DNA of 42,703 nt, from assembly GCA_004524445.1 (NCBI GenBank), contig SDNP01000026.1:1-42703 (forward strand), written 5' to 3'. The notes under the pieces are model-generated. The model saw nothing but the letters and a program-made list of their open reading frames with translations, had not been told where the DNA came from and did not search any database. The position numbers were made by a program, and so were the translations under genes. Positions 26,423 through 32,594 of this stretch are shown piece by piece; the stretch's first letter is position 1; each line of letters begins with the position of its first letter. The stretch comes from Candidatus Thorarchaeota archaeon. GTDB taxonomy: Archaea; Asgardarchaeota; Thorarchaeia; Thorarchaeales; Thorarchaeaceae.

Positions 26423-26818
26423 TCATATCTTTTTGAATACTTTTGCAAGCGATGGCCCCATTACGTGCATTTTGAATTCGTTGAATGTGCCGAATGGAAC
26501 AATATGAACCTTGAACTCGCTCTTATCAAAGCGTTCTGCAAGTTCACTTATCAACCCCTCAGCAAACTGCGAATCAGACTTCCTGTCGCCCAAGTGAGCA
26601 AAAGAATGTAGAACAATCGTGGAGAGGTTGTTTTTCTTTGCAAGCCACTTGATATTCTTATACATCTTTCTTGCAACCTTCAGTCGGTCGTCCCGGTCAT
26701 TCGGTTCAGATTGCATCCAAACCAAAAGGGATTCATCGAAGAAGACACCGGGTTCATCAGGACTTGCAGTGTGGGAGCGGTACCAGAAACTCTCCACGTG
26801 AAACATCAAGAGACGCAC
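26423..26818 (-). CDS. Stand-alone archaeal-type threonyl-tRNA synthetase editing domain
   Basis: MRLLMFH, VLHSFAHL, PFG, GPSLAK match the archaeal ThrRS N-terminal editing domain (DTD fold). Confidence 0.8.
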   Translation of the reverse strand: MRLLMFHVESFWYRSHTASPDEPGVFFDESLLVWMQSEPNDRDDRLKVARKMYKNIKWLAKKNNLSTIVLHSFAHLGDRKSDSQFAEGLISELAERFDKSEFKVHIVPFGTFNEFKMHVMGPSLAKVFKKI

Positions 26819-26886: not shown

Positions 26887-27765
26887 TCAGATATGCTCCC
26901 CCTCTTCCGGAATCTCTGCTGAGTGGTCCTCAGCTTCATCACTATCTAATTCTGCCTGTCCATTAATGATTTCATACTTCCTTGATACAGGGGACACAGC
27001 TTTCCGAGGAATTGCTTTTCCATGAATCCAAATCGTATTCGGCGGGATGACTTTATTCTTTGGCACAACAGTATTCGCACCAATAATCACATTATCTCCG
27101 ATTTCGGCTCCGGCTAAGATTACAGCATTGGCACCGACGGTTACATTATTGCCTATTTCGACAGTCTTCAGATATAACCGATCACCTTCATAGACATGCC
27201 CACTCATGATGGCGTCATAACCAAAGAAGCATTCATCACCTATTATGGTTCGCTCTGGATTAAAGAGACGTCCATTACCCACAACAGTTGCTTTTCCAAT
27301 TTTCGCTCCAAAAAGCATGTGACGTGGTTTTGTATCCAAAAAGATTGAGAAGAACCACGCGAAGTACGGAAAGAGATTATAGTAGACCACACGGTATTCA
27401 TAGAGCAACCAATCTTCTGATTCCATAGGGTAGTATCCATCTTCAAGGAAGGGGATGCCACGAGCAGATAGTTTGAAGAAGCCCAGCAGAACACCCAAGA
27501 AAAGACCATAACAGAATAGCGAGATGGGGACCAATAACGTGAAGAAGTAGAACTTCTCATATACAATGAGCGGCAGCATATCTCCCAGCAAAGCCTGTGC
27601 AAGAACAGGAGGACCGTCAAGTAGTCCGCCAAAGCCAGTGATAATCGAGTCTATGTTTTGATAAAAGAACCAGAAGAATAGGATAGCAGGTACGGAGGCA
27701 AAGGTCAGACTGAATAGGAGCGAGAGGACCATATATGCACTGTAGGCTAAGGTTTTCAATTTCAT
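26887..27765 (-). CDS. Membrane-associated hexapeptide-repeat (LbH) acyltransferase
   Basis: N-terminal TM helices; FGAKIGK, IGDECFFG, SGH, IGNNVTVGANAVILAGAEIGDNVIIGA. Confidence 0.85.
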   Translation of the reverse strand: MKLKTLAYSAYMVLSLLFSLTFASVPAILFFWFFYQNIDSIITGFGGLLDGPPVLAQALLGDMLPLIVYEKFYFFTLLVPISLFCYGLFLGVLLGFFKLSARGIPFLEDGYYPMESEDWLLYEYRVVYYNLFPYFAWFFSIFLDTKPRHMLFGAKIGKATVVGNGRLFNPERTIIGDECFFGYDAIMSGHVYEGDRLYLKTVEIGNNVTVGANAVILAGAEIGDNVIIGANTVVPKNKVIPPNTIWIHGKAIPRKAVSPVSRKYEIINGQAELDSDEAEDHSAEIPEEGEHI

Positions 27766-27917
27766 CTATGACACACACGAATGAAGAAACTACTTCTTCC
27801 TCGGGAGTTGGTACATTTGAAAGTATCGCCATTAACCTTCTTGACAGCAGAAACAGATATAGAGGGACTATAGGCAAGTCGCAACATACTCATTCAGACA
27901 TAATGGAAGCCAACCCA

Positions 27918-29153
27918 ATGACTCGAGAATTTGACACCGTGATTGCTGGAACAGGTCCTGCTGGACTTATGACTGCTGAACAATGTGCCGGGAGAGGACT
28001 TGACACATTAATCCTTGAGAAACGTAAGGATGTCACCAGTTCACTCATGGGTGAGCTTGTGACGGACAAGGCGCTCAGACTTCTCAGAGTCAAGCCCAAT
28101 TCTGAATACATCGGAAATAAGTTCACTCAGATAGTTGGAGAGAGTCTAGACACGGGGGCGAATATCGTTGTTGATCGTACGCTTCTTGGAAATTCGTACC
28201 TGCTGGATGAAGATAGATGTCAAGAACTAATGAGGGACCGTGCCCTGGCTCATGGCGCGGAGTTTCGCTACAACGCCAGAGTGAAATCGGTGGTTCAGAA
28301 GGACAATCAAGTGATCGGTGTCAAGTATAATCACGACGAGGAGGCGAGGGCAGGACTCACGGTAGGTGCTGATGGTTCATTCAGCAGAGTTTCAAAAACT
28401 GCAGGATTCACCCACCCCAAGTGGCTGCTTTCCTATGGATATCGATTCAAATTAGAAAACTGCAAGAATGTAGACCCGGATGTGGCGTACTTTTACGTTG
28501 GCGAAGATGTGGGCCTTGGATATCTCTGGCTATATCCCAGAAGTGAAACCGAGGTGAACCTTGGCATTGGACGTGTTCCCTCATCAAAGGACAAATGGGA
28601 GGAACTTAAGCCCATGAGAGATGTCCTCAAGAAATACATGAAGACACATCCGGAAACTAAGAACGCCAAAATAGCAAGTGTAAATGGCGGTGTTGTCCCA
28701 TGTGCAGGGCTCATACCACGCTTCACTGATGCAGGCGTATCCCTTTGTGGCAACGCTGCAGGGCAGGTCTCATCAATTGTTGGTGGTGGGGTGACGACAT
28801 GTTTCCATGCTGGCATCTTGCTGGCAAAGCATGCCAAACGAATGGCAGAACATGATGATTATTCAGAAAAGAGTGTCAGGAAGTACGAGAAGGAGTATAG
28901 AGGAACCAAGCTTGCAAACAACATAGTCAACACCGGCAAGGGGATGTGGGCGGTCTCCAAATTCAGCATGCATAATGATCCAATTTCTGCTGCAGAAATT
29001 GTATTGGACGAGCTAGATGCCAGAACGCTGAATGAACTCATTCAAGGAACTGCCGGAATCAATACCTACCTCACCCTAGTCTCTGAATTCCTCCCCATGG
29101 TCATGAATATAGGTTTAGGATATCTTAGAGCTATAGCGATAAGCGGCCTCTAA
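27918..29153 (+). CDS. Geranylgeranyl reductase-family FAD oxidoreductase
   Basis: FDTVIAGTGPAG, VGADG, GYLWLYP, VNLGIG, GNAAG...GGG. Start at ATG 27918 or 27903. Confidence 0.85.
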   Translation: MTREFDTVIAGTGPAGLMTAEQCAGRGLDTLILEKRKDVTSSLMGELVTDKALRLLRVKPNSEYIGNKFTQIVGESLDTGANIVVDRTLLGNSYLLDEDRCQELMRDRALAHGAEFRYNARVKSVVQKDNQVIGVKYNHDEEARAGLTVGADGSFSRVSKTAGFTHPKWLLSYGYRFKLENCKNVDPDVAYFYVGEDVGLGYLWLYPRSETEVNLGIGRVPSSKDKWEELKPMRDVLKKYMKTHPETKNAKIASVNGGVVPCAGLIPRFTDAGVSLCGNAAGQVSSIVGGGVTTCFHAGILLAKHAKRMAEHDDYSEKSVRKYEKEYRGTKLANNIVNTGKGMWAVSKFSMHNDPISAAEIVLDELDARTLNELIQGTAGINTYLTLVSEFLPMVMNIGLGYLRAIAISGL

Positions 29154-29175
29154 TCATAGAGTGATTGAATAGAAC

Positions 29176-29282
29176 AAAAAAGTGTTGAAGCAGGGTCCAC
29201 CCCGCGACCCTGCTTCTTTTTGCCTATTTGTAACAAGCCCCCGAAATCACGGATACCGTGAGATACTATTTGTAGGCAACCA
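29176..29282 (-). ncRNA. Candidate structured small RNA, copy 1
   Basis: Upstream TTTTATTA box; TTGCCTA/TAGGCAA closing stem; internal TCACGG/CCGTGA hairpin; 11-bp terminal hairpin then T6. Homologous to copy 2. Confidence 0.4.
29187..29221. terminator. Bidirectional hairpin terminator
   Basis: GAAGCAGGGTC-caccccgc-GACCCTGCTTC perfect 11-bp stem, with T5 downstream on + and A6 upstream (T6 on -). Confidence 0.65.
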
Positions 29283-29408
29283 CATATAGAGCGTGCCCCC
29301 TTAATAAAATTCCCTCATTCAATGTATATCAAGTTACTATCTGTAGCAATGTACATGAACTCGGAGTTTTTTATGTCGTCCTTCGTGTCTCCGCTACAGA
29401 TCAAAGAT

Positions 29409-29524
29409 GAGAAAGAAAGCAGAAGAATGAGAGGGTCCCCCCTCTCCTTCTCGCCTAGTTGTTCGAACGATGCCTTTTTGACTTAGGTCCACCTGCCTAA
29501 GAGATGTGGGGTTATTGACATCCA
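29409..29524 (-). ncRNA. Candidate structured small RNA, copy 2
   Basis: Upstream TTTTACAT; GATGTC/GGCATC stem (G-U pair only on the minus strand); CTTAGG/CCTAAG hairpin; ACAACTAGGC; terminal GAGAGGG/CCCTCTC hairpin then a pyrimidine tract. Confidence 0.4.
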
Positions 29525-29637
29525 AGATATCTTGTGCATAAGATGTAAAAGTACATATTCCTGTAAACCTTCATCAAGTTATCTAGTATTGATATTGAAA
29601 CGTGCGTTTAATCAATCTGCAAAGGACATGAAATGCA

Positions 29638-30666
29638 ATGAGCAAATTCGAGTATCATGATGCCCTCTCAAAATTGGGCCTGGAAATGGGAAATGAACGG
29701 GAAAGCAGAGGCATTACTGTTCTCCGTGCGATTTTGAATACATCCGACACATTGGGGGAACCGCACACCTTCGGGGAAATCTACGATCAAATTCTGAGTA
29801 TGGATGACAAATTTGAGCCATCAAAGGCATGGGTTCATCGCCTTCTAAAATCGCTGTTGGAAGATGGTTTGATTCGACTTGAGTCACCTGAAGCCCCTAG
29901 AAACAGGTACATTGCAGATGTGAATTCAATTGCAAATGGGCTGGAGAAAATAAAGGAGGCACAAGAGGAGAAGCTGGAAGAAGAACTGAAGAAGCTCAAG
30001 AAGGACTTGTCCTCATTCTCAGAATTGGATGTGGGCGTGATTGCTGAGCACCTGATAGAAGACCTCACTGGGAAAAAACAGACTCTGAGTTCGCGATTCA
30101 TCAAAGGTATTGAGGAGTTGCATCGGGTCTTGAAAAACAATATCCACGCCCAAGCAGAGGAAGGCGACATTATACGTTCAAATATGACTTGGCTTGGATC
30201 CCTTGCCAAAGACTCGCACCACCGGATCCGAAAGGACATCGAAGCAGCTAGCAGAGGAGTTGAAGTGCGATGGATGATTAGTAGCAGGATATTTCAAATG
30301 GAGCAAAAAATCAAAAGCGGATTACCATCGGAGGAACTTGCGCACTTGTTCCAGGATTTCTTTAAACTAAGAAGGAACAAGATGTCATTTGATCTAAGAA
30401 TACATAGGGGTGCTGAGGCTTATAACCACGTATCTCTTAATCGTGATGCTTTGGCGATGATAATAACTGATGAGCCCTTGACTGCAACATATGTTACTCG
30501 CGATTTCAATGCAGAGCTTATTGACAACACAGTTGATAATTTTGATGCCTTATGGAATAATTCCATTTCACTCTTTGAACTAAAAGGCGAAGACCTAGAG
30601 AAGCTAAGAATAGATCCGAATGGGGTCATTGGAAAAATACTTGCTGGGCTTGAGACCGAAGGATAA
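29638..30666 (+). CDS. TrmB-like regulator 1 (wHTH - coiled coil - PLD-like sensor domain)
   Basis: TFGEIY...SKAWVHRLLKSLLEDGLI wHTH; heptad EEKLEEELKKLKKDL; IKGIEE, RGVEVRWMI, FDALWNNS. Confidence 0.7.
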   Translation: MSKFEYHDALSKLGLEMGNERESRGITVLRAILNTSDTLGEPHTFGEIYDQILSMDDKFEPSKAWVHRLLKSLLEDGLIRLESPEAPRNRYIADVNSIANGLEKIKEAQEEKLEEELKKLKKDLSSFSELDVGVIAEHLIEDLTGKKQTLSSRFIKGIEELHRVLKNNIHAQAEEGDIIRSNMTWLGSLAKDSHHRIRKDIEAASRGVEVRWMISSRIFQMEQKIKSGLPSEELAHLFQDFFKLRRNKMSFDLRIHRGAEAYNHVSLNRDALAMIITDEPLTATYVTRDFNAELIDNTVDNFDALWNNSISLFELKGEDLEKLRIDPNGVIGKILAGLETEG

Positions 30667-30711
30667 AAATGAAGGCAAGTGACTAAATATATTTGAGAGG
30701 GATAAGGGCAT

Positions 30712-31629
30712 ATGCAAGACCCTAGTATTAATGAAGAATTCGACCTGCTTGGGCTTGATATAAATGAGGTTAGATTTCTTGTTCTCCAAGCTATAGCACT
30801 TGCCTCAAGAAAGAGTGGCTCAAGTGTTACTTTCACTCAATTGAACGAAGTCTTGACTGACCTGCGACAAGGAAAAAAGACCGCAAAACCACAGATTTAC
30901 CGCTATATTACAGAAATGGAAGAATTAGGGTTTATCGCGGTGGATAGAAGTGAATATCGTAATAGGTATGAAACCAATGTGCAGTATATTGGTAAGTCAT
31001 TGATTTCGCTTAAGGCGGCAACGCAAAAGGACATGGAAGAGAGGCTAAAAACAATCGGGCATGAGAGGAAGGAGTTGGATGAGATAGCAATAACTAGGTT
31101 ATCTCGAGAATTCTCACTTCTGCTCACAGGGAAAGAACTCCAACAACAGCCCAGAGTCATCGAAGGAATTGAGGCAATACATAATGTTATTGAATCCGTC
31201 TTTTATGAATTGGCAGAAACTGGAGACATCGTGAGGGCGACACTTGATTGGGTAGACATTCCCAAAAATATGGAATCTATTCGATGGGATGCAATCAGGA
31301 GAATTGTTGCCAGGGGTGCACAGTACAGAATTATGTATCGGCTGAATTCCATTCCTAGCCTCGATACATTGGAAAGCCGAAAGAATGCTTACCGGAGCAT
31401 TAGAAAAGAGTTCAACAACATCTCCCTAAGGGAGTCAAGAAAGGAGGCAAAGAGTTACGATGGATTATCACTCAATCGGGATAGCATACTCCTTATTGTG
31501 ACCGAGCGCCCCCTCACTGCAATATACGTCCCGAGGTCTGAAAATGCAGAACTTGTCGACAGCTTTGTACATAGTTATGATGCCGAATTTGAGAAAGCAG
31601 AGGATGTCATTGATTTGTTGGAGGCATAA
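30712..31629 (+). CDS. TrmB-like regulator 2
   Basis: TFTQL...AKPQIYRYITEMEELGFI; coiled coil; IEGIEA, RGAQYRIM, SLNRDSILLIVTERPLTA. Confidence 0.7.
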   Translation: MQDPSINEEFDLLGLDINEVRFLVLQAIALASRKSGSSVTFTQLNEVLTDLRQGKKTAKPQIYRYITEMEELGFIAVDRSEYRNRYETNVQYIGKSLISLKAATQKDMEERLKTIGHERKELDEIAITRLSREFSLLLTGKELQQQPRVIEGIEAIHNVIESVFYELAETGDIVRATLDWVDIPKNMESIRWDAIRRIVARGAQYRIMYRLNSIPSLDTLESRKNAYRSIRKEFNNISLRESRKEAKSYDGLSLNRDSILLIVTERPLTAIYVPRSENAELVDSFVHSYDAEFEKAEDVIDLLEA

Positions 31630-31631
31630 GG

Positions 31632-32594
31632 GTGGCTGGAGAACGAGTTAGAATGCTATTAGATAGCCTCGGAGTCGCGTTGTCAAAGAGTGAGGAAAAG
31701 GTTCTAGCAGCAATTCTTGATTCATGTAAGAATCAGAGCTCAGTCACATTTGGCGATATCCAAGACGTTCTTGCAAAAAAGGAGGGTTCGAAAATATCAA
31801 AGCAATGGATATACCAATGTCTGTCCAATTTGGAGGATGCAGGGTTGATTCAAGCAGCAAGAGGCTTCCCTCAGAACCCAACTGAATATGTAGCCAGTAT
31901 TGTTACGCTTCGAGCAGGTTTGCAGAAGGCACAGAGTGAGAAATCCGAACAGCTGGATGAAGAAGAAAGGAAACTGTCTGAAGATATTCAAAAGCTGAAA
32001 TCCTTAGAGCCCAATAGATTGGCCCATCGATTGGTTGAAACTTTCACAGAACAATCGCAAGGGAGTAATCCTATAGTTGTACAGGGGGTTACTAGTGTCA
32101 GAAATCTCTTTCAAACAGAGATACTTGATATTTGCAACCGAGGCGATATCATAAGACTTGGAGGCAGATTTAGCTTCATTGAATTGCAAGACCCAGAGAA
32201 GGCATCCATTGAATTAAAGATAATTGAAAAGACGATTGAAGGGGTAGTAATTCGAGGACTGATTCAAATTGTCGAAGATAGGATAGATGAAGCGCTAGAA
32301 GAAAATGTGGATTTCTTCATGCGTATGCGTGACATGATCATGGAGTCTATCAAGTCAGGATATCTAGAATTGAAAGCAATACCGATTCAGAAATCAACAT
32401 ACCAGTTTGTCAGCCTAAATTCGGAAAAAATGTTGCTTTTTCTTACTGGCACAAAACAACCAGACACAGTTGCATTGTTCACTCGTGAGAATCGATCGAT
32501 TCTACTAGATGATGCCATTGGCTCATTCGATAAGTTATGGACACAGGCAACAGATTTGAATGAGATGGTGTACGATTTTCTCGATAATACATGA
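31632..32594 (+). CDS. TrmB-like regulator 3
   Basis: TFGDI...SKQWIYQCLSNLEDAGLI; coiled coil; VQGVTS, EGVVIRGLI, SLNSEKML, FDKLWTQA. Confidence 0.7.
   Translation: MAGERVRMLLDSLGVALSKSEEKVLAAILDSCKNQSSVTFGDIQDVLAKKEGSKISKQWIYQCLSNLEDAGLIQAARGFPQNPTEYVASIVTLRAGLQKAQSEKSEQLDEEERKLSEDIQKLKSLEPNRLAHRLVETFTEQSQGSNPIVVQGVTSVRNLFQTEILDICNRGDIIRLGGRFSFIELQDPEKASIELKIIEKTIEGVVIRGLIQIVEDRIDEALEENVDFFMRMRDMIMESIKSGYLELKAIPIQKSTYQFVSLNSEKMLLFLTGTKQPDTVALFTRENRSILLDDAIGSFDKLWTQATDLNEMVYDFLDNT

What the first reader, a model, noticed from the sequence alone, without database searches (positions are those of the whole stretch)
29170..29585. Tandem pair of homologous promoter + structured small RNA + terminator units in a 480-bp intergenic region
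Seen on the minus strand: two units about 230-245 bp apart share this order: TAACTTGAT (29328-36; 29573-81), TTTTA box, GCAC, TGG(T/A)TG(C/T)C, (T/C)ATCT, a hairpin with a different sequence but kept pairing (CACGG/CCGTG vs CTTAGG/CCTAAG), GGC..GTT, ACAA(A/C)TAGGC, a strong terminal hairpin containing GGACCCT, and a pyrimidine tract. Short conserved motifs with fully exchanged stems are typical of structured RNA. A pair that works only as G-U on the minus strand supports that orientation. No conserved reading frame is shared. By eye I could not match it to tRNA, C/D, H/ACA, hammerhead, twister or a riboswitch. Inference: two paralogous ~110-nt ncRNAs of an undescribed family.
Basis: partly seen in the sequence, partly recalled or inferred. 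Interest (0 to 1): 0.8.

Follow-up and report, generated by a model that had tools for sequence, protein, structure and literature searches.

The report
Thorarchaeota G-loop small RNA pair
Two short stretches between genes of an Asgard archaeon are copies of an uncatalogued small RNA gene found across nearly the whole Thorarchaeota family; three neighbouring regulator genes probably switch it on, and it may act by soaking up other regulatory RNAs, but its expression and function are untested.

Summary
Confirmed. The two minus-strand units are paralogous genes for a structured RNA of about 110-120 nt with no Rfam match. A covariance model finds it in 68 of 86 Thorarchaeaceae genomes, usually once, with no credible hit in 123 other Asgard genomes. 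The scan found this family before in another genome (e1-5584205).

The RNA tracks the divergent operon of three TrmB-like regulators, not the GGR gene. The box is gone in all three genomes that lost the regulators, so it is probably their operator.

Best mechanism (about 35%): the G-loop mimics a Shine-Dalgarno site and sponges C-rich-seed small RNAs, as Bacillus RosA does. Two family-wide RNAs with an invariant CCUCCC seed exist and pair with the loop (up to 12 bp), but the statistical support is modest. No expression data could be obtained; the strand rests mainly on promoter layout.

The parts
29563..29581 (-). Upstream box (putative operator of the TrmB-like trio) of RNA a
   Evidence: Top hit in the whole genome (21.6 bits) for a matrix trained without this genus; fixed 8-10 nt spacing to TATA in most homologues
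29544..29551 (-). TATA-like box of RNA a
   Evidence: Position matches the TATA boxes of homologues
29408..29524 (-). RNA a (paralogue class a, next to the regulators), about 117 nt; both ends inferred
   Evidence: Model R1 match 29411-29481, 36 bits (this unit was in the training set); class-a orthologues in genera g1 and g7
29469..29474 (-). GGCAU core of RNA a; can pair with the 5' end in this lineage
   Evidence: Most conserved columns of the family; fold
29421..29452 (-). 3' hairpin of RNA a with G6 run (29437-29442; partly self-paired as a GGGA tetraloop), followed by a pyrimidine tail
29318..29336 (-). Upstream box (putative operator) of RNA b
   Evidence: 14.5 bits; second-best site in the genome among those followed by a TATA box; kept although 300 nt from the regulator start codon
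29301..29309 (-). TATA box of RNA b
29173..29283 (-). RNA b (paralogue class b, like the single-copy type), about 111 nt; both ends inferred
   Evidence: Model R1 match 29172-29246, 58 bits (this unit was in the training set); folding z -3.1
29234..29240 (-). Core motif of RNA b (variant of GGGCAUG)
29187..29216 (-). 11-bp 3' hairpin of RNA b with an open 8-nt G-rich loop (29198-29205); on the plus strand it is followed by T5, a terminator-like layout
   Evidence: Covariation; unpaired probabilities; terminator scan
29638..30666 (+). TrmB-like regulator 1 (winged helix, coiled coil, PLD-fold domain), divergent from the RNAs
   Evidence: AlphaFold pLDDT 84.5; Foldseek best hits TrmBL2 E 9e-11 and TrmB
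30712..31629 (+). TrmB-like regulator 2
   Evidence: Paralogue of regulator 1
31632..32594 (+). TrmB-like regulator 3
   Evidence: Paralogue; weak Pfam TrmB hit
27735..29153 (+). Geranylgeranyl-reductase-family gene; convergent neighbour, context only
   Evidence: separated from the RNA in several genomes

Best explanation
Each unit is a stand-alone small RNA gene on the minus strand. Step 1 (well supported, about 0.88): a conserved structured non-coding RNA family of Thorarchaeota, duplicated in one clade into classes a and b. Step 2 (supported by a natural experiment, about 0.75): the divergent three-gene TrmB-like operon makes the factor that binds the asymmetric 19-bp box just upstream of BRE/TATA. 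The position suggests activation, presumably in response to a metabolite bound by the PLD-fold domain. Step 3 (inferred, about 0.35): the RNA presents a G4-7 loop that mimics a Shine-Dalgarno site and base-pairs with the invariant CCUCCC seed of other Thorarchaeota small RNAs. Titrating them would relieve their repression of SD-led mRNAs, as RosA and RsaI do in Firmicutes.
For: Family in 68/86 genomes, mostly single copy at this locus. 3' helix 85.5% paired; 9 of 10 pairs with two-sided changes; 0/500 shuffles reach this, and slid controls reach only 43-53%. No conserved frame. The box sits at a fixed distance from TATA and is duplicated with the distal copies; 65 sites score 10.9 or more, but the three genomes without the trio score 0.4, 2.8 and -4.9, and two of them keep the RNA. 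The RNA stays beside the head regulator gene when GGR is pushed away (L130, L140, L143). RNA and trio share one range: the family only. A G run of 4 or more is present in 50 of 53 non-redundant units. Thorarchaeota use SD sites (GGAGG enriched 5.4-fold), and C-rich words are depleted near starts. The 9-mer seed occurs 9 times in intergenic DNA against 0.9 expected, one of them inside a tRNA. Two conserved RNA families carry it invariantly. In 7 of 16 lineage groups one of the two seeds ranks in the top 5% of CCUCCC-containing controls (an eighth at 5.6%), with 12 contiguous pairs in members of g2 and g4. Precedent: RosA (PMC8216469).
Against: Strand bias from G-U pairs is not significant. Averaged over lineages, the two seeds rank only at the 9th and 29th percentile of controls. 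The partners were picked from about ten candidates, and the lineages are not independent. No compensatory change between loop and seed was seen, since the seed is invariant. In RNA a most of the G run is predicted self-paired. The GGCAU core is unexplained by the sponge model. G014 keeps the trio but has lost the box and has no model match. The box could have been deleted with the trio simply by proximity.
Confidence: 0.35

Rival explanations
1. Same gene and same regulation, but the RNA works by binding a protein (a CsrB- or 6S-like decoy or scaffold). The GGCAU core and the G-loop would be protein sites, possibly for the TrmB-like trio itself as feedback.
For: The core is short, largely single-stranded and repeated twice in genus g5. 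The terminal stem is conserved in sequence as well as in pairing. G-run length varies freely from 4 to 12.
Against: No candidate RNA-binding protein lies beside it. The RNA survives loss of the trio in G030 and G102, so the trio is not its sole partner.
Confidence: 0.25
2. A direct mRNA-targeting small RNA that pairs through the G-loop (GcvB-like G/U seed) or through the core, whose CAU is complementary to start codons.
For: Divergent regulator plus small RNA is the GcvA/GcvB and SgrR/SgrS layout (own knowledge). Core variants mostly stay compatible with AUG or GUG. Some start regions pair over 11-13 nt.
Against: C-rich words are about half as frequent as expected upstream of starts. The best duplex hits are unrelated genes, differ between a and b, and were not shown conserved.
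Confidence: 0.14
3. The G-loop binds the anti-SD tail of 16S rRNA and parks or modulates 30S subunits.
For: The canonical anti-SD tail is present in three Thorarchaeota 16S genes. Class-b and g5 loops pair with it over 7-8 nt or more.
Against: Duplexes with the anti-SD are usually weaker than with the sRNA seeds. Loops keep G where a true SD has A. g2 and g4 loops pair over only 6 nt.
Confidence: 0.12
4. Not a separate transcript: a plus-strand cis element (GGR terminator or 3' UTR, regulator leader), an antisense RNA to GGR, or a DNA element.
For: Folding z-scores are equal on both strands. The b hairpin is followed by T5 on the plus strand. Ordinary terminator-like hairpins in this genome resemble hairpin a.
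Against: The unit keeps box, TATA and tail in minus orientation when other genes separate it from GGR. It persists without the trio. It is duplicated as a whole promoter-to-tail cassette.
Confidence: 0.09
5. A divergent H/ACA or C/D guide RNA, or a mini-ORF mRNA.
For: An ACA or AUA follows the core in 22 of 53 units. The core holds AUG or GUG in 46 of 59.
Against: No RUGAUGA in any of 53 units. The ACA lies mid-molecule and is not conserved. No Rfam match. Frames differ (19/14/26), and peptides range from 0 to over 35 aa with no shared sequence.
Confidence: 0.05

Closest known systems
RosA (Bacillus subtilis) and RsaI (Staphylococcus aureus) RNA sponges, PMC8216469
   Same: Stand-alone small RNA with exposed G-rich stretches complementary to C-rich seeds of other small RNAs; expression tied to a metabolic transcription factor (CcpA there; a TrmB-like trio inferred here).
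   Different: No sequence or model similarity. Archaeal. One G-loop at the tip of the 3' hairpin instead of two or three G-rich regions. Binding is shown for RosA and only predicted here. CcpA represses, whereas the box position here suggests activation.
Regulator-adjacent small RNAs GcvA/GcvB and SgrR/SgrS (own knowledge)
   Same: A small RNA gene transcribed divergently from the ligand-sensing regulator that controls it.
   Different: Those target mRNAs with Hfq. Here three diverged paralogues are kept together and no mRNA target was found.
TFB-RF1-type archaeal activators (PMC5937170) and TrmB/TrmBL2 (PDB 3qph, 5bpd)
   Same: Binding site just upstream of BRE/TATA; winged helix, coiled coil and PLD-fold architecture.
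   Different: The TFB-RF1 site is palindromic, whereas this box is asymmetric. Sequence identity to TrmBL2 is only 13-16%. The only well-placed sites in the genome are the two RNA promoters.

Membership tests
Any Rfam 15 family | Match at or above the gathering score | tested here: not met
   best E 0.74; all far below gathering scores, in the window and in 11 homologous loci
tRNA / tmRNA | Cloverleaf or tag found by ARAGORN | tested here: not met
SRP RNA / RNase P RNA | Being the genome's (possibly divergent) copy | tested here: not met
   Both are present elsewhere in this genome above cut-off
Box C/D sRNA | Conserved C (RUGAUGA) and D (CUGA) boxes | tested here: not met
   0 of 53 units have the C box; CUGA in 19 of 53 and not among the conserved columns
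Box H/ACA sRNA | Conserved ACA 3 nt from the 3' end, 14-16 nt from a guide pocket, with a K-turn or K-loop | tested here: not met
   ACA or AUA in only 22 of 53 units and mid-molecule; no shared lower stem seen on inspection
MITE / IS end | Dispersed copies with terminal inverted repeats | tested here: not met
   Only these two copies in the genome; fixed syntenic position
RosA/RsaI-type sponge | Exposed G-rich region | tested here: met
   G run of 4 or more in 50 of 53 units; open loop in RNA b, only 4 nt open in RNA a
RosA/RsaI-type sponge | C-rich-seed small RNAs in the same organism | tested here: met
   Two conserved candidate families with an invariant seed; their own expression is untested
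RosA/RsaI-type sponge | Specific pairing beyond what a G run gives by chance | tested here: inconclusive
   Top 5% of controls in 7 of 16 groups; 9th and 29th percentile overall
RosA/RsaI-type sponge | Binding and inactivation of the partner in vitro or in vivo | not testable with these tools
   Needs gel shifts or cross-linking
Stand-alone trans-encoded sRNA | Own transcript | not testable with these tools

The most novel reading that the evidence does not exclude
Thorarchaeota run a layered small-RNA circuit: a heteromeric three-subunit TrmB-like sensor whose only well-placed sites are these promoters switches on a Shine-Dalgarno-mimic sponge that neutralises several anti-SD small RNAs, with the duplicated copies a and b split between partners. 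I found no report of an RNA sponge in archaea in the library searched.
Probability: 0.25. Interest if true: 0.85.

Novelty: new variant of a known kind. Interest (0 to 1): 0.62.

Why it matters
Almost nothing is catalogued about regulatory RNAs in Asgard archaea, the closest prokaryotic relatives of eukaryotes. This is a family-wide RNA with a predicted operator, a predicted regulator and named candidate partners, so each link can be tested in vitro without a culture. If the sponge reading holds, it extends small-RNA-on-small-RNA control to archaea. A three-paralogue TrmB-like factor on an asymmetric site would also be unusual.

Tried and rejected
Rfam, ARAGORN, SRP, RNase P, C/D, H/ACA and mini-ORF readings: all negative.

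Loop-tail pseudoknot: striking in a few genomes, but the own tail pairs no better than foreign tails overall (mean percentile 0.48, n=29), and it is absent in this window.

A multi-copy element with a C-loop complementary to the G-loop in this genome: the loop is not conserved in other genera and the element is MITE-like, so it was rejected as partner.

Pairing of the GGCAU core with the leader of the C38 RNA: fits some genomes and fails in many g5 genomes.

Genome-wide duplex scan for mRNA targets: no convincing hit. Strand by folding energy: uninformative.

Four bacterial pattern hits among 596 Gb score 19-31 bits, three of them partial; treated as chance but not examined further.

No complex prediction was run: TrmB paralogues would tend to pass by likeness to solved dimers. 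Literature searches found no description of this RNA.

Full report
Setting. The window comes from a Thorarchaeota genome: the closest relatives of the flanking gene are in records so named. The 484-bp gap lies between the stop of a geranylgeranyl-reductase-family gene (27735-29153, plus) and the start of three co-oriented genes (29638-32594, plus). The first of these folds with good confidence into a winged helix, a long helix and a PLD-like domain, and its best structural matches are TrmBL2 and TrmB. The three are paralogues.

Observation. No further copy exists in the genome. Rfam and ARAGORN give nothing, and the genome's SRP and RNase P RNAs lie elsewhere.

Family. I fetched the same intergenic region from about 70 relatives. 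Nearly all hold one unit with this order: upstream box, 8-10 nt, TATA, about 25-30 nt, lineage-specific 5' hairpins, a GGGCAUG-like core, an optional hairpin, a terminal hairpin with a G-rich loop, and a pyrimidine tail. A covariance model of the 3' part finds it in 68 of 86 family genomes, and an unfiltered search recovers weaker copies in further genera. Outside the family there is one marginal hit (E 0.049) in 123 Asgard genomes. The regulator has the same range: 41 of 43 family genomes and 0 of 157 others with this query. The terminal helix covaries. On the plain MAFFT alignment, 79% of cells pair and 9 of 10 pairs change on both sides. On the model-fitted alignment it is 85.5%, against 43-53% for slid controls (this alignment leans towards the structure). 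There is no conserved reading frame.

Strand. G-U versus A-C counts lean to the minus strand but are not significant, and folding energies do not discriminate. The case for minus rests on the promoter-to-tail layout, which is kept in minus orientation wherever the unit moves.

Duplication. Two units occur in genera g1, g7 and g8, whose head regulators form one clade (98/93), and separately in g11. Across g1 and g7 the proximal copies resemble each other (class a) and the distal copies resemble each other and the single-copy type (class b). Both have therefore been kept since an old duplication.

Link to the regulators. (i) In G064, G007 and G079 another gene sits between GGR and the RNA, yet the RNA stays upstream of the head regulator; it is not a GGR terminator or antisense RNA. 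(ii) The asymmetric box is duplicated with the distal copies, up to 300 nt from the regulator start, at unchanged distance from their own TATA, so it belongs to the RNA promoter. (iii) A matrix trained without this genus ranks the box of RNA a first in the genome; the two boxes rank first and second among sites followed by a TATA box. (iv) G030 (97% complete), G013 (97%) and G102 (74%, but the next gene abuts the RNA on the contig) lack the trio. All three lack the box (0.4, -4.9 and 2.8 bits against 10.9 or more for 65 others). G030 and G102 keep the RNA. One counter-case: G014 keeps the trio but not the box, with only a G-rich hairpin remnant. A site directly upstream of BRE/TATA is where TFB-RF1 binds to activate (PMC5937170), so activation is the likelier sign; this is inference.

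What the RNA may do. The invariant features are the core and a loop G run of 4-12. Thorarchaeota mRNAs use SD sites, and C-rich words are depleted near starts, which makes direct start-site targeting by a G loop unlikely. Earlier scan notes mentioned C-rich-loop RNAs in this family, so I scanned intergenic hairpins. A 9-nt C-rich seed is enriched about tenfold. It lies in the loop of two separate RNA families, one found in at least seven genera and one in about 50 genomes, with the seed essentially invariant. Its core is complementary to SD. The G-loop and its flanks pair with these seeds: 12 contiguous pairs in members of g2 and g4, 8-9 for class a with the first family, and 7-10 for g5 and g7 class b with the second. 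Against 500 other CCUCCC-containing 14-mers, one of the two seeds is in the top 5% for 7 of 16 lineage groups, but only at the 9th and 29th percentile on average. Kinship and post-hoc choice weaken this further. The layout matches RosA: a stand-alone RNA with G-rich regions that sponges C-rich RoxS and FsrA under control of a carbon regulator (PMC8216469). I take it as the leading mechanism at about 0.35. Protein decoy, direct mRNA targeting and anti-SD binding remain open, and the core is unexplained.

Verdict. A real, uncatalogued Thorarchaeota small RNA family, present here as two long-maintained paralogues and probably the output of the adjacent TrmB-like trio. It works like a regulator-linked trans-acting small RNA and possibly like a RosA-type sponge; it is not a member of any Rfam family. 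The scan noted the same family before in another genome (e1-5584205). What I tested here beyond that note: loss of the operator together with the trio, the a/b split, and named candidate partners.

Noticed in passing
G000 C29:49599-49759, C4:3565-3720, C33:34410, C7:15363, C7:87252, C41:4253, C53:28008, C49:42793 (L159-L166; relatives L168-L196): MITE-like element of about 250 bp with long terminal inverted repeats, an internal TATA box and a conserved internal hairpin; 8 copies here, 9 or more in several relatives.
   Followed up: partly
G000 C24:28274-28394 minus (L208); homologues L209-L232: Conserved hairpin small RNA candidate with an invariant C-rich (anti-SD-like) loop, upstream promoter and T tail, in at least seven genera.
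   Followed up: partly
G000 C38:33734-33874 plus (L233); homologues L234-L257: Three-hairpin RNA directly after a conserved gene's stop codon, with an invariant C-rich loop, in about 50 genomes; probably the RNA of note e1-5564002.
   Followed up: partly
G000 C19:40160 plus, C21:24628 plus, C20:18447 plus, C19:8486 plus, C40:26876 plus, C25:15646 minus: Further intergenic occurrences of the same 9-nt C-rich seed, several in predicted hairpin loops; conservation not checked.
   Followed up: no
L043 and L045 (genus g9), after the core motif: The 3' hairpin carries two G-run loops in tandem.
   Followed up: no
L017, L021, L023, L025, L028, L031, L036 (genus g5), just upstream of the regulator 1 start codon: A separate near-perfect palindrome of about 16 bp, possibly an autoregulatory site.
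   Followed up: no
G007 C57, G064 C2, G008 C2, G022 C235, G024 C6, G067 C123, G010 C68: The regulator operon has a fourth paralogue; in G064 and G007 the extra copy lies between GGR and the RNA pair.
   Followed up: partly
L003, L005, L006, L015, L051, L060, L136 tails: The 3' tail holds a close complement of the G-loop (possible self-masking); not general across the family and absent in this window.
   Followed up: yes
window 26423-26818 minus: Stand-alone archaeal threonyl-tRNA synthetase editing domain (PF08915) next to a hexapeptide acyltransferase gene.
   Followed up: no
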